Positions 1 through 9,184 of a DNA stretch of 9,444 nucleotides are shown here, in pieces. Source of the stretch: a virus (lineage: Duplodnaviria; Heunggongvirae; Uroviricota; Caudoviricetes); the IMG/VR virus record IMGVR_UViG_2648501787_000016. One strand, 5' to 3'. The notes below the pieces were generated by a model. The model was not told the origin of the DNA and ran no database searches. It saw only the letters and a program-made list of their open reading frames with translations. The position numbers and the translations under genes are program-made. Every line of letters starts with the position of its first letter. Position 1 is the first letter of the stretch.

Positions 1-1053
1 TTACGGGGTAATGCCAACCGCTGCCGCCACTTTGTCGCCACTTGGCAGCGTTGCCAGAGGATTGAAACGGAGCGCCGTTTCTAGATGATCCGGTGCCAGA
101 TGTGCGTAACGCATAGTCATTTTTATATCGTGGTGTCCGAGAATTTTTTGTAAGGCCAGAATGTTTCCACCCGACATCATGAAGTGCGCCGCAAACGTAT
201 GGCGCAGAACGTGTGTGAGTTGACCGCGAGGGAGCACGATAGACGTTTTTTCCATCACGGATAAAAATTGAAAATAGCAGTCTGTGAAGAAATTGAACCC
301 ATCAAGCGCCATGATCTCTTCGTAAAGCTCTTTACTGATAGGGATGCTTCTGTTTTTCTTCCCCTTCGTTCTGACAAAGGTAATTCGGTATTTGGTCACC
401 TGTGAGCGGGTAAGATTTACGGCTTCACGCCAGCGTGCGCCTGTGCTTAAGCATATCTTAACTACCAGTGCCAGAATTGGGTCCTGACGTTTGCAATCAG
501 CCAGCAATTCAACAATCTGCTCATGGGTAAGCCATGCCATCTCTTTTTCTGCGATGGTGAATTTTCGCATGTTCTCCAGTGGGTTCGGATACGACCATTC
601 GCCCAGACGGGATAGTTCGCTAAAAACACTACTTAGATAGCTTTGCTCCAGGTTAATGGTGACCGGGCTTGCTCCTTTCTTCCATTTCTCGCTGAAGTAG
701 ATCTCGCCTGTCAGGCGTTTATCTCGATAGTGGGCAAACATTTTAGAGGTGAGATCGGTTGCAAGAGGATTGCCCAGAGCGTCAACCATCAACAGCAATT
801 TGTCATAGACATGCTGCCCAGCTGTCAGAGATTTACCATGTAGTTTGAACCATAGCTCAACCACGTCTTTCAGTGTTCGACGATCCACTGATTCACCCAG
901 CCAGGGCTTTGCTTCGGTTTCTTCCATCGTGTGGCGCTCAAAAGCCAGTGCTTCGCCTTTGGTGGCGAATTGTTTACGCACACGACGCCCACTTCGTCCG
1001 GCGGGGTAACATTCGCAAAGCCATTTCCCTGTGGTTAGTTTTCGTACTGCCAT
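1..1053 (-). CDS. int: P2/186-type tyrosine integrase (site-specific recombinase)
   Basis: 350-codon ORF whose stop codon is at window positions 1-3. Translation carries tyrosine-recombinase signatures (LSTGARWREAVNL; C-terminal HVLRHTFAAHF...GHHDIKMTMRYAHL with the catalytic Tyr). It lies downstream of the repressor gene in the same orientation, as in P2/186 phages. Confidence 0.9.
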   Translation of the reverse strand: MAVRKLTTGKWLCECYPAGRSGRRVRKQFATKGEALAFERHTMEETEAKPWLGESVDRRTLKDVVELWFKLHGKSLTAGQHVYDKLLLMVDALGNPLATDLTSKMFAHYRDKRLTGEIYFSEKWKKGASPVTINLEQSYLSSVFSELSRLGEWSYPNPLENMRKFTIAEKEMAWLTHEQIVELLADCKRQDPILALVVKICLSTGARWREAVNLTRSQVTKYRITFVRTKGKKNRSIPISKELYEEIMALDGFNFFTDCYFQFLSVMEKTSIVLPRGQLTHVLRHTFAAHFMMSGGNILALQKILGHHDIKMTMRYAHLAPDHLETALRFNPLATLPSGDKVAAAVGITP

Positions 1054-1057
1054 AAAA

Positions 1058-1077
1058 AGCCCTCATATCAGAGGGCT
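1058..1077 (-). terminator. Stem-loop (7-bp stem AGCCCTC/GAGGGCT, 6-nt loop) followed on the minus strand by five U and then the int start codon; putative attenuator/terminator that also sequesters the int Shine-Dalgarno
   Basis: Perfect complementarity of 1058-1064 with 1071-1077 read directly. On the minus-strand RNA the 3' arm GAGGGCU is followed by UUUU and AUG at 1053-1051. Function is inferred. Confidence 0.4.
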
Positions 1078-1099
1078 AAATTTAACTGTATATGTAACC

Positions 1100-1120
1100 A
1101 GTAATCAATGTGTGATTACT
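1100..1120. repeat. Perfect 8-bp inverted repeat AGTAATCA / TGATTACT with 5-bp spacer, immediately 3' of the cargo gene
   Basis: Read directly: 1100-1107 agtaatca, 1113-1120 tgattact. It sits about 15 bp downstream of the cargo stop codon on the minus strand. AT-rich stem with no U-tract, so more likely a protein-binding site or weak RNA structure than an intrinsic terminator. Confidence 0.45.
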
Positions 1121-1135
1121 ATGAAACATACATTG

Positions 1136-2812
1136 CTAAGCAACATGTAGTTCATCGTTGGCGGAAGTGGCTGCTTTGCGCTCCTGCTCAATAGCTAGAG
1201 ACTCTCTATATTCTTTCGCCTCTGCAAACATTGTCCAGTGGGCGTTGATGTTCATGTCTTCAATAACTGATTTGATTTCTTTTAAATTTACGTTAAAAAA
1301 CTCTTTTCGTGAGTTAATTTTATTGACCTGCTTTTCGTTGAAAACTTTATGCAGATGGTTTTCTAATGATGGTGCATCATCACTATAAATCATCGCATGA
1401 ACATCGAACGAAAAAGGAACACTAGCATCTCCGAGTTCACGAACACGATCAAGTGGTTCAAGGCGGCGTGTCATTCCAATTTTATATACATCTTCGCCAA
1501 ATGAACCAATATTACTAATGATATAGACGTGGCCTGATCTGGTTTGTTGAGCCATAGAAATAGCTCGTTGATTTTTAGCTTCAGCTTCTTCATATTTTAA
1601 CTGTAGTTCAGCTATTTTTTGCTCTAAAGCTAAGCGTTGTTCTTCATTTGCAAGCATAAGTTCTTTCGTTGCTTTATTTATAGCTTGCTGAATAGCTTTT
1701 TCTTCTTTTTCAGCTTCTTTTATCGCTTTTTCATATTCTCTACGAGCTCTTTCCTCTTCACGAAGCTGTTCTTTAATCCTTCTTTGCTCTTCTTTTTCTT
1801 CGAGCATAATTTCATTAACTGCTACACCCCATTTTAGCTCGTTGAGTCTTGCCTGAAGATAGATGTCACTTATTTTTGCGGACCTAAAGGCAGAGCCATT
1901 GTAATTTACTAGTTGAAATGCATCTTTTATTTCTTGGGAAAGTTTTCCAAAATTGTTGTGTTTGACTTTTGATAAAATACTGTCAACTCTTCCATTGAAG
2001 GCATCCAAAACAAAGTTTATGGCAGTATTACGCCTGTTTTGCTCAACATAATCACACGAAGCAGCTTTATTAGTTTTTATTAATGATTTGGTTAACTCTC
2101 TGGCTTTTTGTAATTCCTTGCCTGCATCTGTAAATTCATAATTTTCTGCCAGCTCATCAAGTACACTACGGTTAGGGATGATCCATTCATCACCATAACC
2201 TTCAATTTTATTTTTCATTGATTTTGCAACTGCTTCATATTTTTCTGCAAACTCTTTAGCTTCATATGCTGAACCAGCAATCTCCTTTGCTCTTTCTTCT
2301 GCATCAGAAATAATTTTTACTGCATTGTCATTAGCATTTGAGATTAGCTCATTTGCTTTATTATTAGCATTATCAAGACGTTCTTTGGCTTTCAGGCGTG
2401 CATCGCGAGCGTCTTTGGTGATTGCTATAGCTTCGCTATTAGCGTTGCTTATTGTCATCTGAGCTTGATAATTTGCTTCGTTTACTGTTTTAGCCGCCTT
2501 AATTTGGGCTTCATCTATTTTTTGCTTGGCTATTGAGTCCGCATTTTTTATCTTATTCTCTGCATCCATTACTGCGCTGTGCAATTCTTCGTATTGCCAC
2601 AATGGTGCTGCTCGCCCTTCAAGCTCTGATAATTCTCGTACGGTCTGTGCTAGTTTTTCTTGATTTTCAATCAGTTGGTTAGAAAGGGCTATGTTGTTAG
2701 CTGTCAGGTTATCTATAGCCGCTTTGTGTTTTTTACTTTGTTTAAATAATATTACAGCTAGAACAGGGGCGAGAAATGCTAATAAGAGTATAACGATGGC
2801 AAATGAATTCAT
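1136..2812 (-). CDS. Membrane-anchored coiled-coil protein with C-terminal GIY-YIG-like (T5orf172/MUG113-type) putative nuclease domain; candidate prophage-encoded defence/exclusion protein
   Basis: 558-aa ORF with RBS AAGGA 7 nt upstream of the ATG at 2812. N-terminal hydrophobic helix (FAIVILLLAFLAPVLAVILF, residues 4-23). Ala/Lys/Glu/Asn-rich helical region with 11-residue periodicity (residues ~137-180). Central globular region (~200-330), second coiled coil (EEKEEQRRIKEQLREEERARREYEKAIKEAEKEEK). C-terminal domain with GIY-YIG-like motifs (GHVYIISNIGSFGEDVYKIGMTRR ... conserved acidic residues), residues ~427-530. Domain assignment is from motif recognition, not a search. Confidence 0.85.
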   Translation of the reverse strand: MNSFAIVILLLAFLAPVLAVILFKQSKKHKAAIDNLTANNIALSNQLIENQEKLAQTVRELSELEGRAAPLWQYEELHSAVMDAENKIKNADSIAKQKIDEAQIKAAKTVNEANYQAQMTISNANSEAIAITKDARDARLKAKERLDNANNKANELISNANDNAVKIISDAEERAKEIAGSAYEAKEFAEKYEAVAKSMKNKIEGYGDEWIIPNRSVLDELAENYEFTDAGKELQKARELTKSLIKTNKAASCDYVEQNRRNTAINFVLDAFNGRVDSILSKVKHNNFGKLSQEIKDAFQLVNYNGSAFRSAKISDIYLQARLNELKWGVAVNEIMLEEKEEQRRIKEQLREEERARREYEKAIKEAEKEEKAIQQAINKATKELMLANEEQRLALEQKIAELQLKYEEAEAKNQRAISMAQQTRSGHVYIISNIGSFGEDVYKIGMTRRLEPLDRVRELGDASVPFSFDVHAMIYSDDAPSLENHLHKVFNEKQVNKINSRKEFFNVNLKEIKSVIEDMNINAHWTMFAEAKEYRESLAIEQERKAATSANDELHVA

Positions 2813-2832
2813 TTTAAAATCCTTTTACTATA

Positions 2833-3429
2833 TTAATTCGAGACTATTGTACTTCTTATACAAGCAACCACTTCAATATCAGAAAATGCACATTCAAAGC
2901 TATTCTCTGCCGTTGTAATTTTAATCATTCCTTTAGGAAGCCTTGTGATTTTTCGAATGGAATAGGTTCCGTCGATATTGATTAACCAGTTTCCATCAAG
3001 TACTTCAGAAAATTTTTGATCACAAATGTATGTGACGAGTCCATCCTGAACAACAATTGGTGATGAAAGGTTTGCAGGAAGAAATGATGAATCGAAGACA
3101 TATGAACCGTCTTCAATCATTTTGCCTGCGGCAAGGCGAAACTTAACAAGCTCTTCTGTAGCTGCTGTCAGCGAGCTTTGCTTAAGGCCTTGTCCGGTAG
3201 TTAACCATTTGAGGGAGGTTCCTGTTTCAAGAGCACATTGGATTATCCAGTCAGCAGGAAATGTATCCCGCAAATACCTGTTCGCTAGTGTGCTTTTTGA
3301 TACTTCCAAGTGATCAGCTAAAGCCTGTCGTGTCGTAAAGCCATAGGCTTCGACTAATCGCTCAATCGCAGCCTTACCACCTTTATTGGGATTTATTTTG
3401 ATCTCACTTGGGTACTTTGATGTTGACAT
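2833..3429 (-). CDS. cI: Phage CI-type immunity repressor (186-CI-like: N-terminal HTH domain, C-terminal oligomerisation domain)
   Basis: 198-aa ORF. N-terminal region (AIERLVEAYGFTTRQALADHLEVSKSTLANRYLRDTFPADWIIQCALETGTSLKWLTTGQG) resembles the phage CI repressor HTH family. No obvious Ser-Lys autoprotease motif, consistent with antirepressor-dependent induction. Positioned opposite the apl/cII genes across the switch region. Confidence 0.8.
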   Translation of the reverse strand: MSTSKYPSEIKINPNKGGKAAIERLVEAYGFTTRQALADHLEVSKSTLANRYLRDTFPADWIIQCALETGTSLKWLTTGQGLKQSSLTAATEELVKFRLAAGKMIEDGSYVFDSSFLPANLSSPIVVQDGLVTYICDQKFSEVLDGNWLINIDGTYSIRKITRLPKGMIKITTAENSFECAFSDIEVVACIRSTIVSN

Positions 3430-3451
3430 ATCTCTTTTGCGATCCTAGTAT
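3423..3451 (+). promoter_or_regulatory. Candidate lytic promoter pR: -35 TTGACA (3423-3428), 17-bp spacer, -10 TAGTAT (3446-3451)
   Basis: Consensus -35 hexamer and a 4/6 -10 hexamer with ideal spacing, read directly. The -35 overlaps the cI start codon (3427-3429 on the minus strand). Predicted start site around 3458 falls at the edge of the 16-bp palindrome. Confidence 0.5.
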
Positions 3452-3474: not shown

Positions 3475-3524
3475 TTGTCACGATTACTACAGGCTCACCA
3501 CAAGCCAATAGGAGATGTTGCATC

Positions 3525-3746
3525 ATGACCCCTAACATTTCAATAACTCTGAATACGCCACACGTCACAATCGAGCGTTATAGCGAACTTACTGGTCTTT
3601 CAATCGACACAATCAACGATATGTTGGCGGATGGTCGCATTCCTCGGCATCGTCTTCGTAAAGACAAGAAAAGAGAAAAGGTAATGATCAACCTTGCTGC
3701 TCTTACCGTTGATGCACTTACTGATTGCAATGTTGTATTCAACTAG
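3525..3746 (+). CDS. Apl/Cox-like small HTH DNA-binding protein (excisionase / lysis-lysogeny regulator)
   Basis: 73-aa ORF from ATG 3525 with AGGAG 10 nt upstream. HTH-like segment [26 protein letters not shown]. First gene transcribed away from cI, as apl in 186 and cox in P2. The longer TTG-initiated version from 3408 in the ORF track was not used because it would overlap the cI start and the promoter. Confidence 0.6.
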
Positions 3747-3778
3747 TTCCATTTTGGGATACATCAGAGGTGTCGACC

Positions 3779-4288
3779 ATGTTTGATTACCAAGTTTCCA
3801 AACATCCACATTTTGATGAAGCCTGTCGTGCATTCGCACTGCGCCACAATCTGGTGCAACTGGCAGAACGTGCGGGCATGAATGTGCAGATTCTGCGGAA
3901 CAAGCTGAACCCAGCTCAACCTCATTTATTAACCGCACCAGAAATCTGGCTGCTTACCGATCTGACTGAAGATTCAACGTTGGTAGATGGTTTTCTGGCA
4001 CAGATTCATTGTCTGCCATGTGTACCGATTAATGAGGTAGCAAAAGAGAAACTGCCGCATTACGTCATGAGCGCAACTGCAGAGATCGGGCGTGTTGCAG
4101 CAGGTGCGGTATCTGGTGATGTAAAAACTAGTGCCGGTCGTCGTGATGCTATCAGCAGCATTAACTCTGTAACACGACTGATGGCGCTGGCTGCTGTTTC
4201 ATTGCAAGCCCGTTTACAGGCTAATCCTGCGATGGCGAGTGCAGTTGATACCATGACTGGCCTTGGTGCTTCATTCGGTTTGCTGTGA
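3779..4288 (+). CDS. cII: CII-like phage regulatory protein (186 CII family, lysogeny establishment)
   Basis: 169-aa ORF from internal ATG 3779 with AGAGG RBS upstream; the ORF track's 3725 start is an upstream extension. Length and position after the apl-like gene match 186 CII. Sequence character ([45 protein letters not shown]...) fits the CII (CP76) family from memory. Confidence 0.65.
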
Positions 4289-8935: not shown

Positions 8936-8970
8936 TACTGTAAATATAAACAGTGGTTATATTTACAGTA
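8936..8970. promoter_or_regulatory. LexA (SOS) box CTGTAAATATAAACAG at 8938-8953, embedded in a perfect 14-bp inverted repeat (8936-8949 / 8957-8970) overlapping candidate -10 elements
   Basis: Matches CTGT-N8-ACAG with an AT-rich centre, about 17/20 to the TACTGTATATATATACAGTA consensus. The 14-bp arms TACTGTAAATATAA are perfectly inverted around a 7-bp spacer. Located about 45 bp upstream of the next ORF. Confidence 0.7.
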
Positions 8971-8995: not shown

Positions 8996-9184
8996 ATGCA
9001 GGACTATTTTTTGGAGTCTTTGAAGCTCCAGCGCATTGATTTTTTTCTTAAGCTTGTAGCGGCTAGTGAGTGTAGTGATGAAGAGAAGGGGCTGGCTTTG
9101 CAGTGGGTTTCTGAACTAACAGATGAACTCATGGCAAAAATCAGAACCCACGAATACAACCGCTCAATGGATGTCATCAGTTGA
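8996..9184 (+). CDS. Small SOS-controlled protein, candidate Tum-like antirepressor
   Basis: 62-aa ORF with AGGAGG RBS 4-5 nt upstream, directly downstream of the LexA box. In phage 186 the LexA-controlled tum operon encodes the antirepressor. Assignment is by context only. Confidence 0.45.
   Translation: MQDYFLESLKLQRIDFFLKLVAASECSDEEKGLALQWVSELTDELMAKIRTHEYNRSMDVIS

What the first reader, a model, noticed from the sequence alone, without database searches (positions are those of the whole stretch)
1054..3429. Cargo gene is embedded in the lysogenic cI-(cargo)-int operon
Only 20 bp separate the cI stop (2833) from the cargo ATG (2812), with an AAGGA RBS and no terminator-like structure between them. 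The cargo would therefore be co-transcribed with the repressor from the lysogenic promoter and expressed constitutively in lysogens, which is the expression pattern expected of a prophage-borne defence or conversion gene.
Basis: inference. Interest (0 to 1): 0.6.

Follow-up and report, generated by a model that had tools for sequence, protein, structure and literature searches.

The report
Defence gene riding the repressor transcript
A 186-type prophage carries a homologue of the SNIPE anti-phage nuclease directly behind its repressor gene, where it is very probably made together with the repressor in every lysogen; the integrase next door looks like a separate unit with its own predicted switch, not the tail of one long operon.

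Summary
The cI stop (2835-2833) and the cargo ATG (2812-2810) are 20 nt apart. An AAGGA lies 7 nt upstream of the ATG, and the junction has no terminator or structure.

The cargo (558 aa) is a homologue of SNIPE/PD-lambda-1, a published membrane-anchored nuclease that cuts phage DNA during injection. It sits in a variable slot between cI and int. In 157 related loci this slot holds 42 different inserts (Old, AbiU, HEC-01, PDC-S20 and others), and 65 of 66 ORFs point the same way as cI. Co-transcription with cI from the pL and pE analogues is therefore well supported, though only by inference.

The "cI-cargo-int operon" part is not supported. The 82-nt cargo-int spacer is conserved backbone. 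It contains a terminator-like hairpin that also buries the int ribosome-binding site. It also contains a promoter-like element with a high-scoring LexA box in its spacer, and an inverted repeat of the 186 CII type placed as at pE.

My reading is a cI-cargo bicistron that ends at the hairpin, with int driven by its own promoter, which CII would activate and LexA repress.

The cargo and the hotspot are of known kinds. The int arrangement appears undescribed and is untested.

The parts
1..1053 (-). int, tyrosine integrase (350 aa); stop codon at 1-3
   Evidence: Pfam Int_N + Phage_integrase; PHROG 1 integrase
1054..1077 (-). Hairpin AGCCCTC/TGATAT/GAGGGCT (1077..1058) followed by a T-run that ends at the int ATG. 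Terminator-like. The 3' arm contains the int SD (GAGG).
   Evidence: Top terminator-like hit. Leader fold z = -5.5. A hairpin is present in all 51 unique related leaders with the SD in the 3' arm (fully or mostly paired in 50; in L025 only the adjacent GGGC pairs), and the T-run is >=5 in 44 of 51. 5 of 8 pairs show compensatory changes.
1079..1108 (-). Predicted int promoter (Pint): -35 TTGATT 1108..1103, 17-nt spacer, -10 TTAAAT 1085..1080. Relatives have TTGACA/TTGACC and TAAAAT/TTAAAT.
   Evidence: (ACATTGA invariant). The predicted start, about 7 nt after the -10, falls inside the 5' arm of the hairpin (inference).
1084..1103 (-). LexA-box-like operator TACTGGTTACATATACAGTT that fills the Pint spacer
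   Evidence: PWM score 22.4 (second best in the window, next background score 6.3; 0 of 300 shuffles reach it). CTG and CAG are invariant while the core varies. 51 of 58 unique leaders match CTG[TG]N8[AC]CAG.
1108..1133 (-). Inverted repeat ATGTATG-N12-CACACAT of the 186 CII-site type, abutting the -35
   Evidence: The pattern occurs only here and at the pE CII site in the window, with 0 expected by chance. It is conserved while the spacers differ. Its distance to the -10 is the same as at pE.
1136..2812 (-). Cargo: SNIPE/PD-lambda-1 homologue, 558 aa. N-terminal TM helix, coiled coil, DUF4041, GIY-YIG-type (T5orf172) nuclease.
   Evidence: PADLOC PD-Lambda-1 E 2.4e-120. Pfam DUF4041, T5orf172, MUG113. 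50% identity over the C-terminal 293 aa to a 500-aa E. coli SNIPE protein, with catalytic E414 aligned to E484. GC 0.33-0.38 against 0.47-0.55 for the backbone.
2813..2832 (-). cI-cargo spacer with SD AAGGA (2824..2820)
2833..3429 (-). cI immunity repressor (198 aa)
   Evidence: Pfam Phage_CI_repr + Phage_CI_C
3423..3451 (+). pR analogue TTGACA-17-TAGTAT
   Evidence: position matches 186 pR in the alignment
3515..3543 (-). pL analogue TTGAAA-17-CAACAT, face to face with pR and overlapping the apl start
   Evidence: Same position as the annotated 186 pL (TTGCGA-17-CATGAT) relative to the apl ATG. Only 8/12 to consensus, like 186 pL.
3525..3746 (+). apl/cox-like excisionase-repressor (73 aa)
   Evidence: PHROG 575, E 1e-31
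3751..3805 (-). pE analogue: CII site ATGTTTG-N13-CAAACAT (3779..3805), then TGGTCG-17-CAAAAT reading leftward (-10 at 3756..3751)
   Evidence: Near-identical to the annotated 186 CII site and pE
3779..4288 (+). cII (169 aa)
   Evidence: Pfam Phage_CP76, E 3e-42

Best explanation
The window is the control region of a 186-type (Peduoviridae) prophage. A variable cargo slot lies between the repressor gene and the integrase regulatory region. In this element the slot holds one gene, a SNIPE/PD-lambda-1 homologue. SNIPE is an inner-membrane-anchored nuclease that, in the characterised member, cuts incoming siphovirus DNA during injection.

The cargo has no promoter of its own. It is the second cistron of a cI-cargo transcript and is translated from its own AAGGA site. 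That transcript starts at pL in lysogens and at the CII-dependent pE during establishment. Every lysogen that makes repressor should therefore also make the nuclease.

The transcript then meets a hairpin plus T-run immediately before int. This element should terminate most transcripts, and in any read-through RNA it buries the int ribosome-binding site.

int is served by its own promoter, which is nested in that spacer. Its -35 abuts an inverted repeat of the CII-binding type, placed as at pE. Its spacer is a LexA operator. Its predicted start lies inside the 5' arm of the hairpin, so RNAs that start there can neither terminate nor hide the SD.

Int would thus be produced when CII is present (infection, integration) and when LexA is cleaved (SOS, excision). 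It would not be produced constitutively.

Shown directly: the sequence anatomy, its conservation and the homologies. Inferred: all transcription, termination and binding steps.
For: Cargo identity: and RefSeq product names. Mechanism of the family: PMC13190303.

cI-cargo coupling:
- 20-nt spacer with a conserved SD; no terminator, structure or conserved promoter.
- pL and pE analogues sit at the 186 positions.
- 65 of 66 ORFs in 42 slot variants are co-oriented and begin close to the cI stop.
- The cI allele and the cargo are strictly linked in 163-166 of 5426 E. coli genomes.

Slot as a defence hotspot: Old (E 9e-235), AbiU, HEC-01A/B, PDC-S20, PDC-M11A/B and PDC-M18A/B.

int as a separate unit:
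- The 82-nt leader is shared by relatives with unrelated cargo, and cargo ORFs end 70-92 nt before the int ATG, at the edge of the inverted repeat.
- The hairpin is conserved with compensatory changes and has the SD in its 3' arm in all 51 leaders (paired in 50).
- The LexA PWM score of 22.4 lies above the median of genuine operators (19.9) and is equalled in the window only by the box at the tum-like promoter.
- CTG/CAG and TTGA are invariant amid variable flanks.
- The CII-type repeat is unique to pE and this leader and has the same geometry.
- Relatives in which cI and int abut, as in 186, have no leader at all.
Against: - There are no transcript, binding or reporter data for this element or any relative.
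- The pL analogue matches consensus only 8/12 (as does 186 pL).
- In this window Pint itself is weaker (TTGATT/TTAAAT, 8/12) than in relatives (up to 11/12), and its LexA box has a CTGG half-site.
- The repeat at Pint has a 12-nt (sometimes 13-nt) spacer against 13 at pE. Its distal half-site is degenerate in some relatives. Relatives have a good -35, which is unusual for an activator-dependent promoter.
- The T-run is missing in five distant relatives, so termination may be secondary to SD sequestration.
- Terminator efficiency is unknown, and read-through could still supply Int.
- The LexA matrix was built from operators I recalled from the literature, not from a curated file.
- The characterised SNIPE works from its own upstream region in another prophage context.
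Confidence: 0.6

Rival explanations
1. One reading: one long lysogenic operon cI-cargo-int from pL/pE, as in phage 186, with the cargo simply inserted into it and int dependent on read-through.
For: In 186, cI and int are co-transcribed (PMC7708051). All three genes are co-oriented. Pint in this window is only an 8/12 match. Five distant relatives have no T-run after the hairpin.
Against: A canonical terminator-like hairpin plus T-run lies between the cargo and int, and it also pairs the int SD. The leader carries a conserved -35, a LexA box and a CII-type repeat whose footprint pattern is hard to explain otherwise. The leader exists only in lineages where cI and int are separated.
Confidence: 0.15
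2. The cargo is an autonomous moron with its own promoter inside the 3' end of cI, so its expression is independent of the repressor promoters.
For: The DNA is AT-rich and looks foreign (GC 0.33-0.38). There is a weak 8/12 match at 2975..2948. A SNIPE homologue in a lambdoid prophage sits alone, opposite to its neighbours, with about 800 bp of upstream spacer. PD-lambda-1 was cloned with only its flanks and was active (PMC13190303).
Against: The weak match is not conserved in the 82-87%-identical cI genes that carry the same cargo. The spacer is 20 nt. At this slot 65 of 66 ORFs of unrelated families are co-oriented with cI and start within a few tens of nt of its stop. That pattern is the signature of dependence on upstream transcription.
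Confidence: 0.15
3. The conserved leader motifs are not promoter or operator elements. They would instead be recombination or architectural sites (Int arm-type, IHF, Apl), or only a translational operator for Int autoregulation.
For: The hairpin's best-conserved property is SD sequestration. From my own memory of the literature, not verified here, P2 int is reported to be regulated post-transcriptionally.
Against: In 186, attP and its Int, IHF and Apl sites lie on the other side of int. The motifs match LexA and CII consensus in sequence, symmetry and spacing, and they sit in promoter register with a -35 and a -10.
Confidence: 0.07

Closest known systems
SNIPE (PD-lambda-1), E. coli ECOR26; Vassallo 2022 (PMC9519451), Nature 2026 (PMC13190303)
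   Same: Same domain order: N-terminal TM helix, coiled coil, DUF4041, C-terminal GIY-YIG/T5orf172 nuclease. Strong match to the PD-Lambda-1 HMM. The nuclease core is about 80% identical to a 500-aa E. coli SNIPE protein, and the catalytic Glu is conserved.
   Different: 558 aa against 500 aa. The N-terminal ~265 residues are unrelated, and the paper proposes this region sets target specificity. It sits in a 186-type myovirus prophage behind cI, not as a stand-alone gene in a lambdoid prophage. Its activity and target range are untested.
Defence genes co-transcribed with the immunity repressor: lambda cI-rexAB, Salmonella BTP1 cI-bstA (PMC7067206)
   Same: A defence gene lies directly downstream of the repressor gene, is co-oriented, has no separate promoter, and is expressed in lysogens.
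   Different: Those are lambdoid/P22-like switches. Here the switch is the face-to-face pR/pL type of 186, with an additional CII-dependent pE. Transcription is mapped in those cases and only inferred here.
Phage 186 lysogenic operon (cI-int-orf69 from pL/pE)
   Same: Homologous cI, apl, cII. pR, pL, pE and the CII site are at the same positions. A LexA-controlled tum-like module is present.
   Different: In 186, cI and int overlap by 1 nt, there is no cargo, and the operon terminator lies beyond int. Here there is 1.8 kb of cargo plus an 82-nt regulatory leader with a terminator-like hairpin before int.
Prophage defence hotspots: the cI-int hotspot of Vibrio K139-like P2 phages (Rousset 2022, PMC9122126) and the 'integrase-primase' hotspot class in P2-like prophages (PMC13586616)
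   Same: A small locus between two conserved phage genes with high turnover, holding known and candidate defence systems.
   Different: The enterobacterial slot is delimited here to the base: cI stop on one side, the edge of the int promoter region on the other. It is tied to a specific int lineage. The earlier descriptions do not address the regulatory consequences for int.
Lambda pI (CII-activated int promoter), and LexA-repressed recombinase or antirepressor promoters (integron intI; 186 p95-tum)
   Same: An integrase promoter that responds to the establishment activator. An SOS operator overlaps a promoter of a mobile-element recombination function.
   Different: Both inputs would be combined on one promoter, and that promoter is nested in a terminator/SD-sequestering hairpin. 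186 CII is unrelated to lambda CII. All of this is predicted, not shown.

Membership tests
SNIPE / PD-lambda-1 defence proteins | Significant match to the family profile | tested here: met
   PADLOC PD-Lambda-1, E 2.4e-120, residues 106-550 on profile positions 36-481 of 491
SNIPE / PD-lambda-1 defence proteins | Central DUF4041 domain | tested here: met
   Pfam PF13250, E 3e-12, residues 267-322
SNIPE / PD-lambda-1 defence proteins | C-terminal GIY-YIG-type nuclease with the catalytic Glu (E414 in SNIPE) | tested here: met
   Pfam T5orf172/MUG113, residues 427-520. E484 aligns with E414 of a 500-aa E. coli SNIPE protein. That this 500-aa protein is the published one is inferred only from equal gene length (1503 bp).
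SNIPE / PD-lambda-1 defence proteins | N-terminal membrane anchor (present in about two thirds of homologues) | tested here: met
   Residues 4-23, FAIVILLLAFLAPVLAVILF, followed by KQSKKHK (sequence). No dedicated predictor was run.
SNIPE / PD-lambda-1 defence proteins | Blocks phage infection by cleaving DNA at injection | not testable with these tools
   Needs plaque assays and DNA-entry assays
186-type single lysogenic operon (cI and int on one pL/pE transcript) | pL facing pR, and a CII-dependent pE upstream of cI | tested here: met
186-type single lysogenic operon (cI and int on one pL/pE transcript) | cI and int contiguous, with no terminator between them | tested here: not met
   1779 nt separate them, and a terminator-like hairpin lies at 1077-1054. 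In 186 the genes overlap by 1 nt.
Prophage defence hotspot | Fixed position between conserved genes with high turnover of unrelated inserts | tested here: met
   42 insert types and 31 protein families between the cI stop and the int leader
Prophage defence hotspot | Inserts include known defence systems | tested here: met
   Old, AbiU, HEC-01, PDC-S20, PDC-M11, PDC-M18 and PD-Lambda-1
LexA (SOS) operator | CTGT-N8-ACAG palindrome with an AT-rich core, scoring within the range of genuine operators | tested here: met
   CTGG-N8-ACAG, one mismatch. PWM 22.4 against a training range of 13.1-25.9. 0 of 300 shuffles reach it. The matrix came from recalled operators.
LexA (SOS) operator | Overlaps a promoter | tested here: met
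   Fills the 17-nt spacer between the -35 and -10
LexA (SOS) operator | Bound by LexA; target derepressed by DNA damage | not testable with these tools
   Needs EMSA or ChIP and reporter assays
186 CII-dependent promoter (pE type) | Inverted 7-mers ATGTTTG/CAAACAT about two helical turns apart | tested here: inconclusive
   ATGTATG-N12-CACACAT: half-sites 6/7 and 6/7, spacer 12 against 13. Unique to pE and this site in the window. The distal half-site is degenerate in some relatives.
186 CII-dependent promoter (pE type) | Proximal half-site ends 21-22 nt upstream of the -10 | tested here: met
   22 nt at Pint and at the window's pE; 21 nt at 186 pE
Intrinsic terminator | GC-rich stem-loop followed directly by a T-run | tested here: met
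   7-bp stem with 5 GC pairs, 6-nt loop, TTTTT; about -13 kcal/mol. The T-run is >=5 in 44 of 51 related leaders, shorter in two, and absent in the five most distant.

The most novel reading that the evidence does not exclude
In this lineage of 186-type phages the ancestral cI-int operon has been split. A hairpin that is both terminator and SD trap insulates int from repressor-promoter transcription. A promoter nested inside that hairpin's upstream arm gives int two inputs, activation by CII on infection and derepression by LexA cleavage on SOS. This rewiring would be what freed the cI-int junction to become a plug-in site where any defence gene is expressed with the repressor at no cost to integration or excision control.
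Probability: 0.45. Interest if true: 0.6.

Novelty: new variant of a known kind. Interest (0 to 1): 0.4.

Why it matters
For the cargo, the value is practical. About 3% of complete E. coli genomes carry this cI-SNIPE module. Its N-terminal region differs from that of the characterised protein, so its target range may differ too.

The slot is a precisely bounded place to harvest candidate defence genes. Roughly half of the 31 protein families found there match no known system.

For phage biology, the predicted int promoter would be a compact, testable example of how a temperate phage rewires integrase control so that accessory genes can ride on the repressor transcript. It would also add a CII- and LexA-responsive int promoter to the well-studied 186/P2 switch family.

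Tried and rejected
- Rfam scan of the whole window: no family reached threshold, so the leader hairpin is not a described RNA.
- Relaxed promoter scan for a cargo-specific promoter inside cI: only one 8/12 match, not conserved in relatives. Rejected as the main driver.
- Terminator-like hit inside cI (3118..3090): AT-rich stem in translated sequence. Disregarded.
- Idea that the hairpin belongs to the cargo, as a moron terminator: rejected, because the same leader follows unrelated cargo.
- Idea that the leader motifs are att-associated sites: rejected, because 186 attP lies beyond int.
- Literature search for a LexA- or CII-controlled int promoter in P2-like phages: nothing relevant found. 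This is absence in the held library only.
- Nesper 1999 (K139 control region) and Brenes & Laub 2025 could not be read.
- A column-wise pair count on alignment A2 was not attempted, because stems of different length misalign. I used per-sequence folds and RNAalifold on the hairpin segment instead.
- No structure prediction or large protein-database search was run; the family assignment did not need them.
Full report
**What the window is.** The ORF map and domain searches show the left arm of a 186-type P2-family prophage.
- int: 1-1053, - strand.
- A 558-aa cargo gene: 1136-2812, - strand.
- cI: 2833-3429, - strand (Phage_CI_repr + Phage_CI_C).
- A Cox/Apl-like gene: 3525-3746, + strand.
- cII: 3779-4288 (Phage_CP76).
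- Then fil-like, dam, replication gene A and a DinI/Tum-like module.

The region is 99.9% identical to Escherichia phage vB_EcoM-813R9 and 95.5% identical to Klebsiella phage KP12. It occurs in about 164 of 5426 complete E. coli genomes.

**The observation.** It is correct to the base.
- The cI stop TAA is at 2835-2833 and the cargo ATG at 2812-2810.
- The 20 nt between them read TATAGTAAAAGGATTTTAAA on the - strand, with AAGGA 7 nt before the ATG.
- There is no terminator-like site at the junction.
- The junction folds no better than shuffled sequence (z = -0.04).
- No promoter-like match of 9/12 or better lies between pL and the cargo. The one 8/12 match inside cI is not conserved in relatives that carry the same cargo behind a cI only 82-87% identical. 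The spacer and SD are conserved in those relatives.

**What the cargo is.**
- It matches the PADLOC PD-Lambda-1 model at E 2.4e-120.
- It has Pfam DUF4041 plus T5orf172/MUG113.
- RefSeq now names identical proteins "SNIPE associated domain-containing protein".
- PD-lambda-1 was found in ECOR26 by functional selection (PMC9519451; supplement). It has since been characterised as SNIPE, an inner-membrane-anchored GIY-YIG nuclease that cleaves phage DNA during injection. Its DUF4041 binds DNA and tape-measure protein, and its N-terminal region is highly variable (PMC13190303).
- Against a 500-aa SNIPE protein from a lambdoid E. coli prophage, the window protein is 50% identical over the C-terminal 293 residues. 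That protein's gene is the same length as the ECOR26 gene. The nuclease core is about 80% identical, and E484 aligns with the catalytic E414.
- The first ~265 residues (TM helix 4-23 and a long coiled coil) are unrelated.
- It is therefore a family member with a different N-terminal "adapter", and its target range is unknown.

**The cargo sits in a slot, not a one-off insertion.** I fetched 157 loci that encode relatives of this integrase. In each I located cI, cII and int.
- Where int is at least about 55-70% identical and the leader described below is present, cI and int are separated by 393-3286 nt.
- These gaps hold 42 distinct inserts with 66 ORFs in 31 protein families, at GC 0.29-0.40.
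- 65 of the 66 ORFs are co-oriented with cI. The first ORF starts a median of about 15 nt after the cI stop.
- The last ORF usually ends 70-92 nt before the int ATG.
- Inserts include a full-length homologue of P2 Old (E 9e-235), AbiU, HEC-01A/B, PDC-S20 (KAP NTPase), PDC-M11A/B, PDC-M18A/B and an AriA/Old-like ATPase. Many families have no match.
- In 16 loci with more distant integrases (50-56% identical), cI and int abut (1-10 nt). In phage 186 itself they overlap by one base.
- A cI-int hotspot has been described for Vibrio K139-like P2 phages (PMC9122126). A recent survey lists an "integrase-primase" hotspot class holding 8% of P2 defence systems (PMC13586616). The kind of locus is therefore known.

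**Co-transcription with cI.**
- Alignment with the annotated 186 switch places a pR analogue at 3423-3451.
- A pL analogue (TTGAAA-17-CAACAT) lies at 3543-3515, at the same distance from the apl start as 186 pL.
- The CII site ATGTTTG-N13-CAAACAT lies at 3779-3805, followed by a pE-like -10.
- Both promoters read through cI into the cargo.
- Three further points make a cI-cargo bicistron the most economical reading: the tight spacing, the near-universal co-orientation of unrelated cargo, and the almost one-to-one co-occurrence of this cI allele with this cargo (163, 166 and 164 genomes).
- This mirrors lambda cI-rexAB and the mapped BTP1 cI-bstA operon (PMC7067206).
- It remains an inference, because no transcript data are available.

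**Why int is probably not part of that operon.** The 82 nt between the cargo stop and the int ATG are conserved backbone, shared by relatives with entirely different cargo. Read on the - strand, they contain the following elements.
- An inverted repeat, ATGTATG-N12-CACACAT (1133-1108).
- A -35 TTGATT (1108-1103); relatives have TTGACA or TTGACC.
- A 17-nt spacer that is a LexA-type palindrome, TACTGGTTACATATACAGTT (1103-1084).
- A -10 TTAAAT (1085-1080).
- A hairpin AGCCCTC/GAGGGCT (1077-1058) whose 3' arm is the int SD.
- A T-run that ends at the ATG.

In an alignment of 28 diverse leaders the invariant columns are ACATTGA, CTG, CAGT, the SD and the ATG. The box core and the flanks vary.

*LexA box.* A LexA matrix built from 20 E. 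coli operators gives 22.4 for this site. I recalled those operators from the literature; they are my own knowledge, not a curated file. Only the box upstream of the tum/DinI-like genes scores comparably (23.1, 8936-8955). That promoter has a second, overlapping box at 15.5, and the next best score in the window is 6.3. No score of 22.4 was reached in 300 shuffles. Related leaders score 15-26. 51 of 58 unique leaders match CTG[TG]N8[AC]CAG.

*Inverted repeat.* The pattern ATGTWTG-N12/13-CAHACAT occurs only twice in the window, at the pE CII site and here, with zero expected by chance. Its promoter-proximal half-site ends 22 nt before the -10 at both promoters, and 21 nt before it at 186 pE. The repeat persists across relatives whose spacers are unrelated, although the distal half is degenerate in some.

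*Hairpin.* All 51 unique leaders fold into a hairpin of -8 to -17 kcal/mol with the SD in its 3' arm; the SD is paired in 50 of them (in L025 only the adjacent GGGC pairs). At least six different stem sequences occur. 5 of 8 consensus pairs show compensatory changes. The T-run is at least 5 in 44 of 51, shorter in two, and absent in the five most distant.

**Model.**
- Transcripts that arrive from cI-cargo contain the complete hairpin. They should terminate at about 1054. If they read through, the int SD stays paired.
- Transcripts that start at the nested promoter begin about 7 nt after the -10, inside the 5' arm. They would lack the hairpin and translate Int.
- That promoter is predicted to be activated by CII, as lambda pI is by lambda CII, and repressed by LexA.
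- This fits a phage whose antirepressor module is also behind LexA boxes.

Confidence by step, in my estimate:
- cargo identity: about 0.95;
- cI-cargo co-transcription: about 0.8;
- a genuine LexA site: about 0.8;
- int mainly served by its own promoter: about 0.65;
- CII activation: about 0.55.

**Novelty and score.** The cargo is a new member of a characterised family. The hotspot and the "defence gene behind the repressor" theme are both established. On its own the finding as written is ordinary to mildly interesting.

The split of the 186-type lysogenic operon is, as far as the searchable literature shows, undescribed. It combines a terminator/SD-trap with a nested, dual-input int promoter. 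It is a new variant of known regulatory parts, and it is entirely predicted. Overall interest: 0.4.

Noticed in passing
window 8936-8970 (+), upstream of ORFs 8996-9184 and 9196->9444: Two overlapping LexA boxes: TACTGTAAATATAAACAGTG (PWM 23.1) and CAGTGGTTATATTTACAGTA (15.5). They precede a 62-aa ORF and a DinI-like ORF. This looks like the analogue of the 186 p95-tum SOS antirepressor module, here split into two genes.
   Followed up: partly
window 1054-1135 (- strand) and the equivalent 82-nt leaders in L008-L164: The cargo-int spacer is a conserved int regulatory leader. It holds a CII-type inverted repeat, a -35, a LexA box, a -10 and an SD-sequestering terminator-like hairpin. It has become central to the explanation.
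   Followed up: yes
cI-int slots of L008-L164 (e.g. L120, L025, L028, L018, L016, L022): The slot is a defence hotspot. It holds Old, AbiU, HEC-01A/B, PDC-S20, PDC-M11A/B, PDC-M18A/B and an AriA/Old-like 662-aa ATPase. About half of the 31 protein families have no PADLOC or Pfam match, for example a 324-338-aa coiled-coil membrane protein in 7 slots, a 342-350-aa + 201-226-aa pair, and 488-493-aa, 395-aa and 468-aa proteins. These are candidate new defence genes.
   Followed up: partly
L013/L014 slot (565-aa SNIPE homologue + 309-aa ORF); L077 third ORF (307 aa); L015 (286-aa ORF on the opposite strand): In some relatives the SNIPE homologue is followed by a second gene. The 309-aa family recurs in an unrelated slot (L077). 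L015 has the only opposite-strand ORF among the 66. Their functions are unknown.
   Followed up: no
L008 and 42 other loci, slot of 393-395 nt; also first ORF in L113 and L140: The commonest insert is a 60-67-aa ORF with a signal-peptide-like N-terminus and a Cys-rich C-terminus (…[23 protein letters not shown]…). It has no family match. It can stand alone or precede a KAP-NTPase gene, which suggests modular build-up of the slot.
   Followed up: no
L165 3984-5486 (E. coli CB6886, lambdoid prophage): The 500-aa SNIPE protein sits alone between ren and a P22AR-like gene. It is opposite to its neighbours and has about 800 bp of upstream spacer. This is a stand-alone moron context, in contrast with the repressor-linked context in the window.
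   Followed up: partly
L001 (Klebsiella phage 4LV2017, KY271398) 1082-1851: The deposited annotation starts int at 1082. Homology to the window's int and the conserved leader place the start about 72 nt further upstream. A 201-aa membrane ORF (MKYTFNPEDL…), paired with the annotated 349-aa cargo in relatives, is not annotated.
   Followed up: partly
window 2851-3150 versus 3150-3429: Low GC (0.33-0.37) extends from the cargo into the C-terminal half of cI. Some E. coli cI genes match only the N-terminal third (query positions 389-597). This suggests recombination breakpoints inside cI, so the cI C-terminal domain and the cargo may move together.
   Followed up: no
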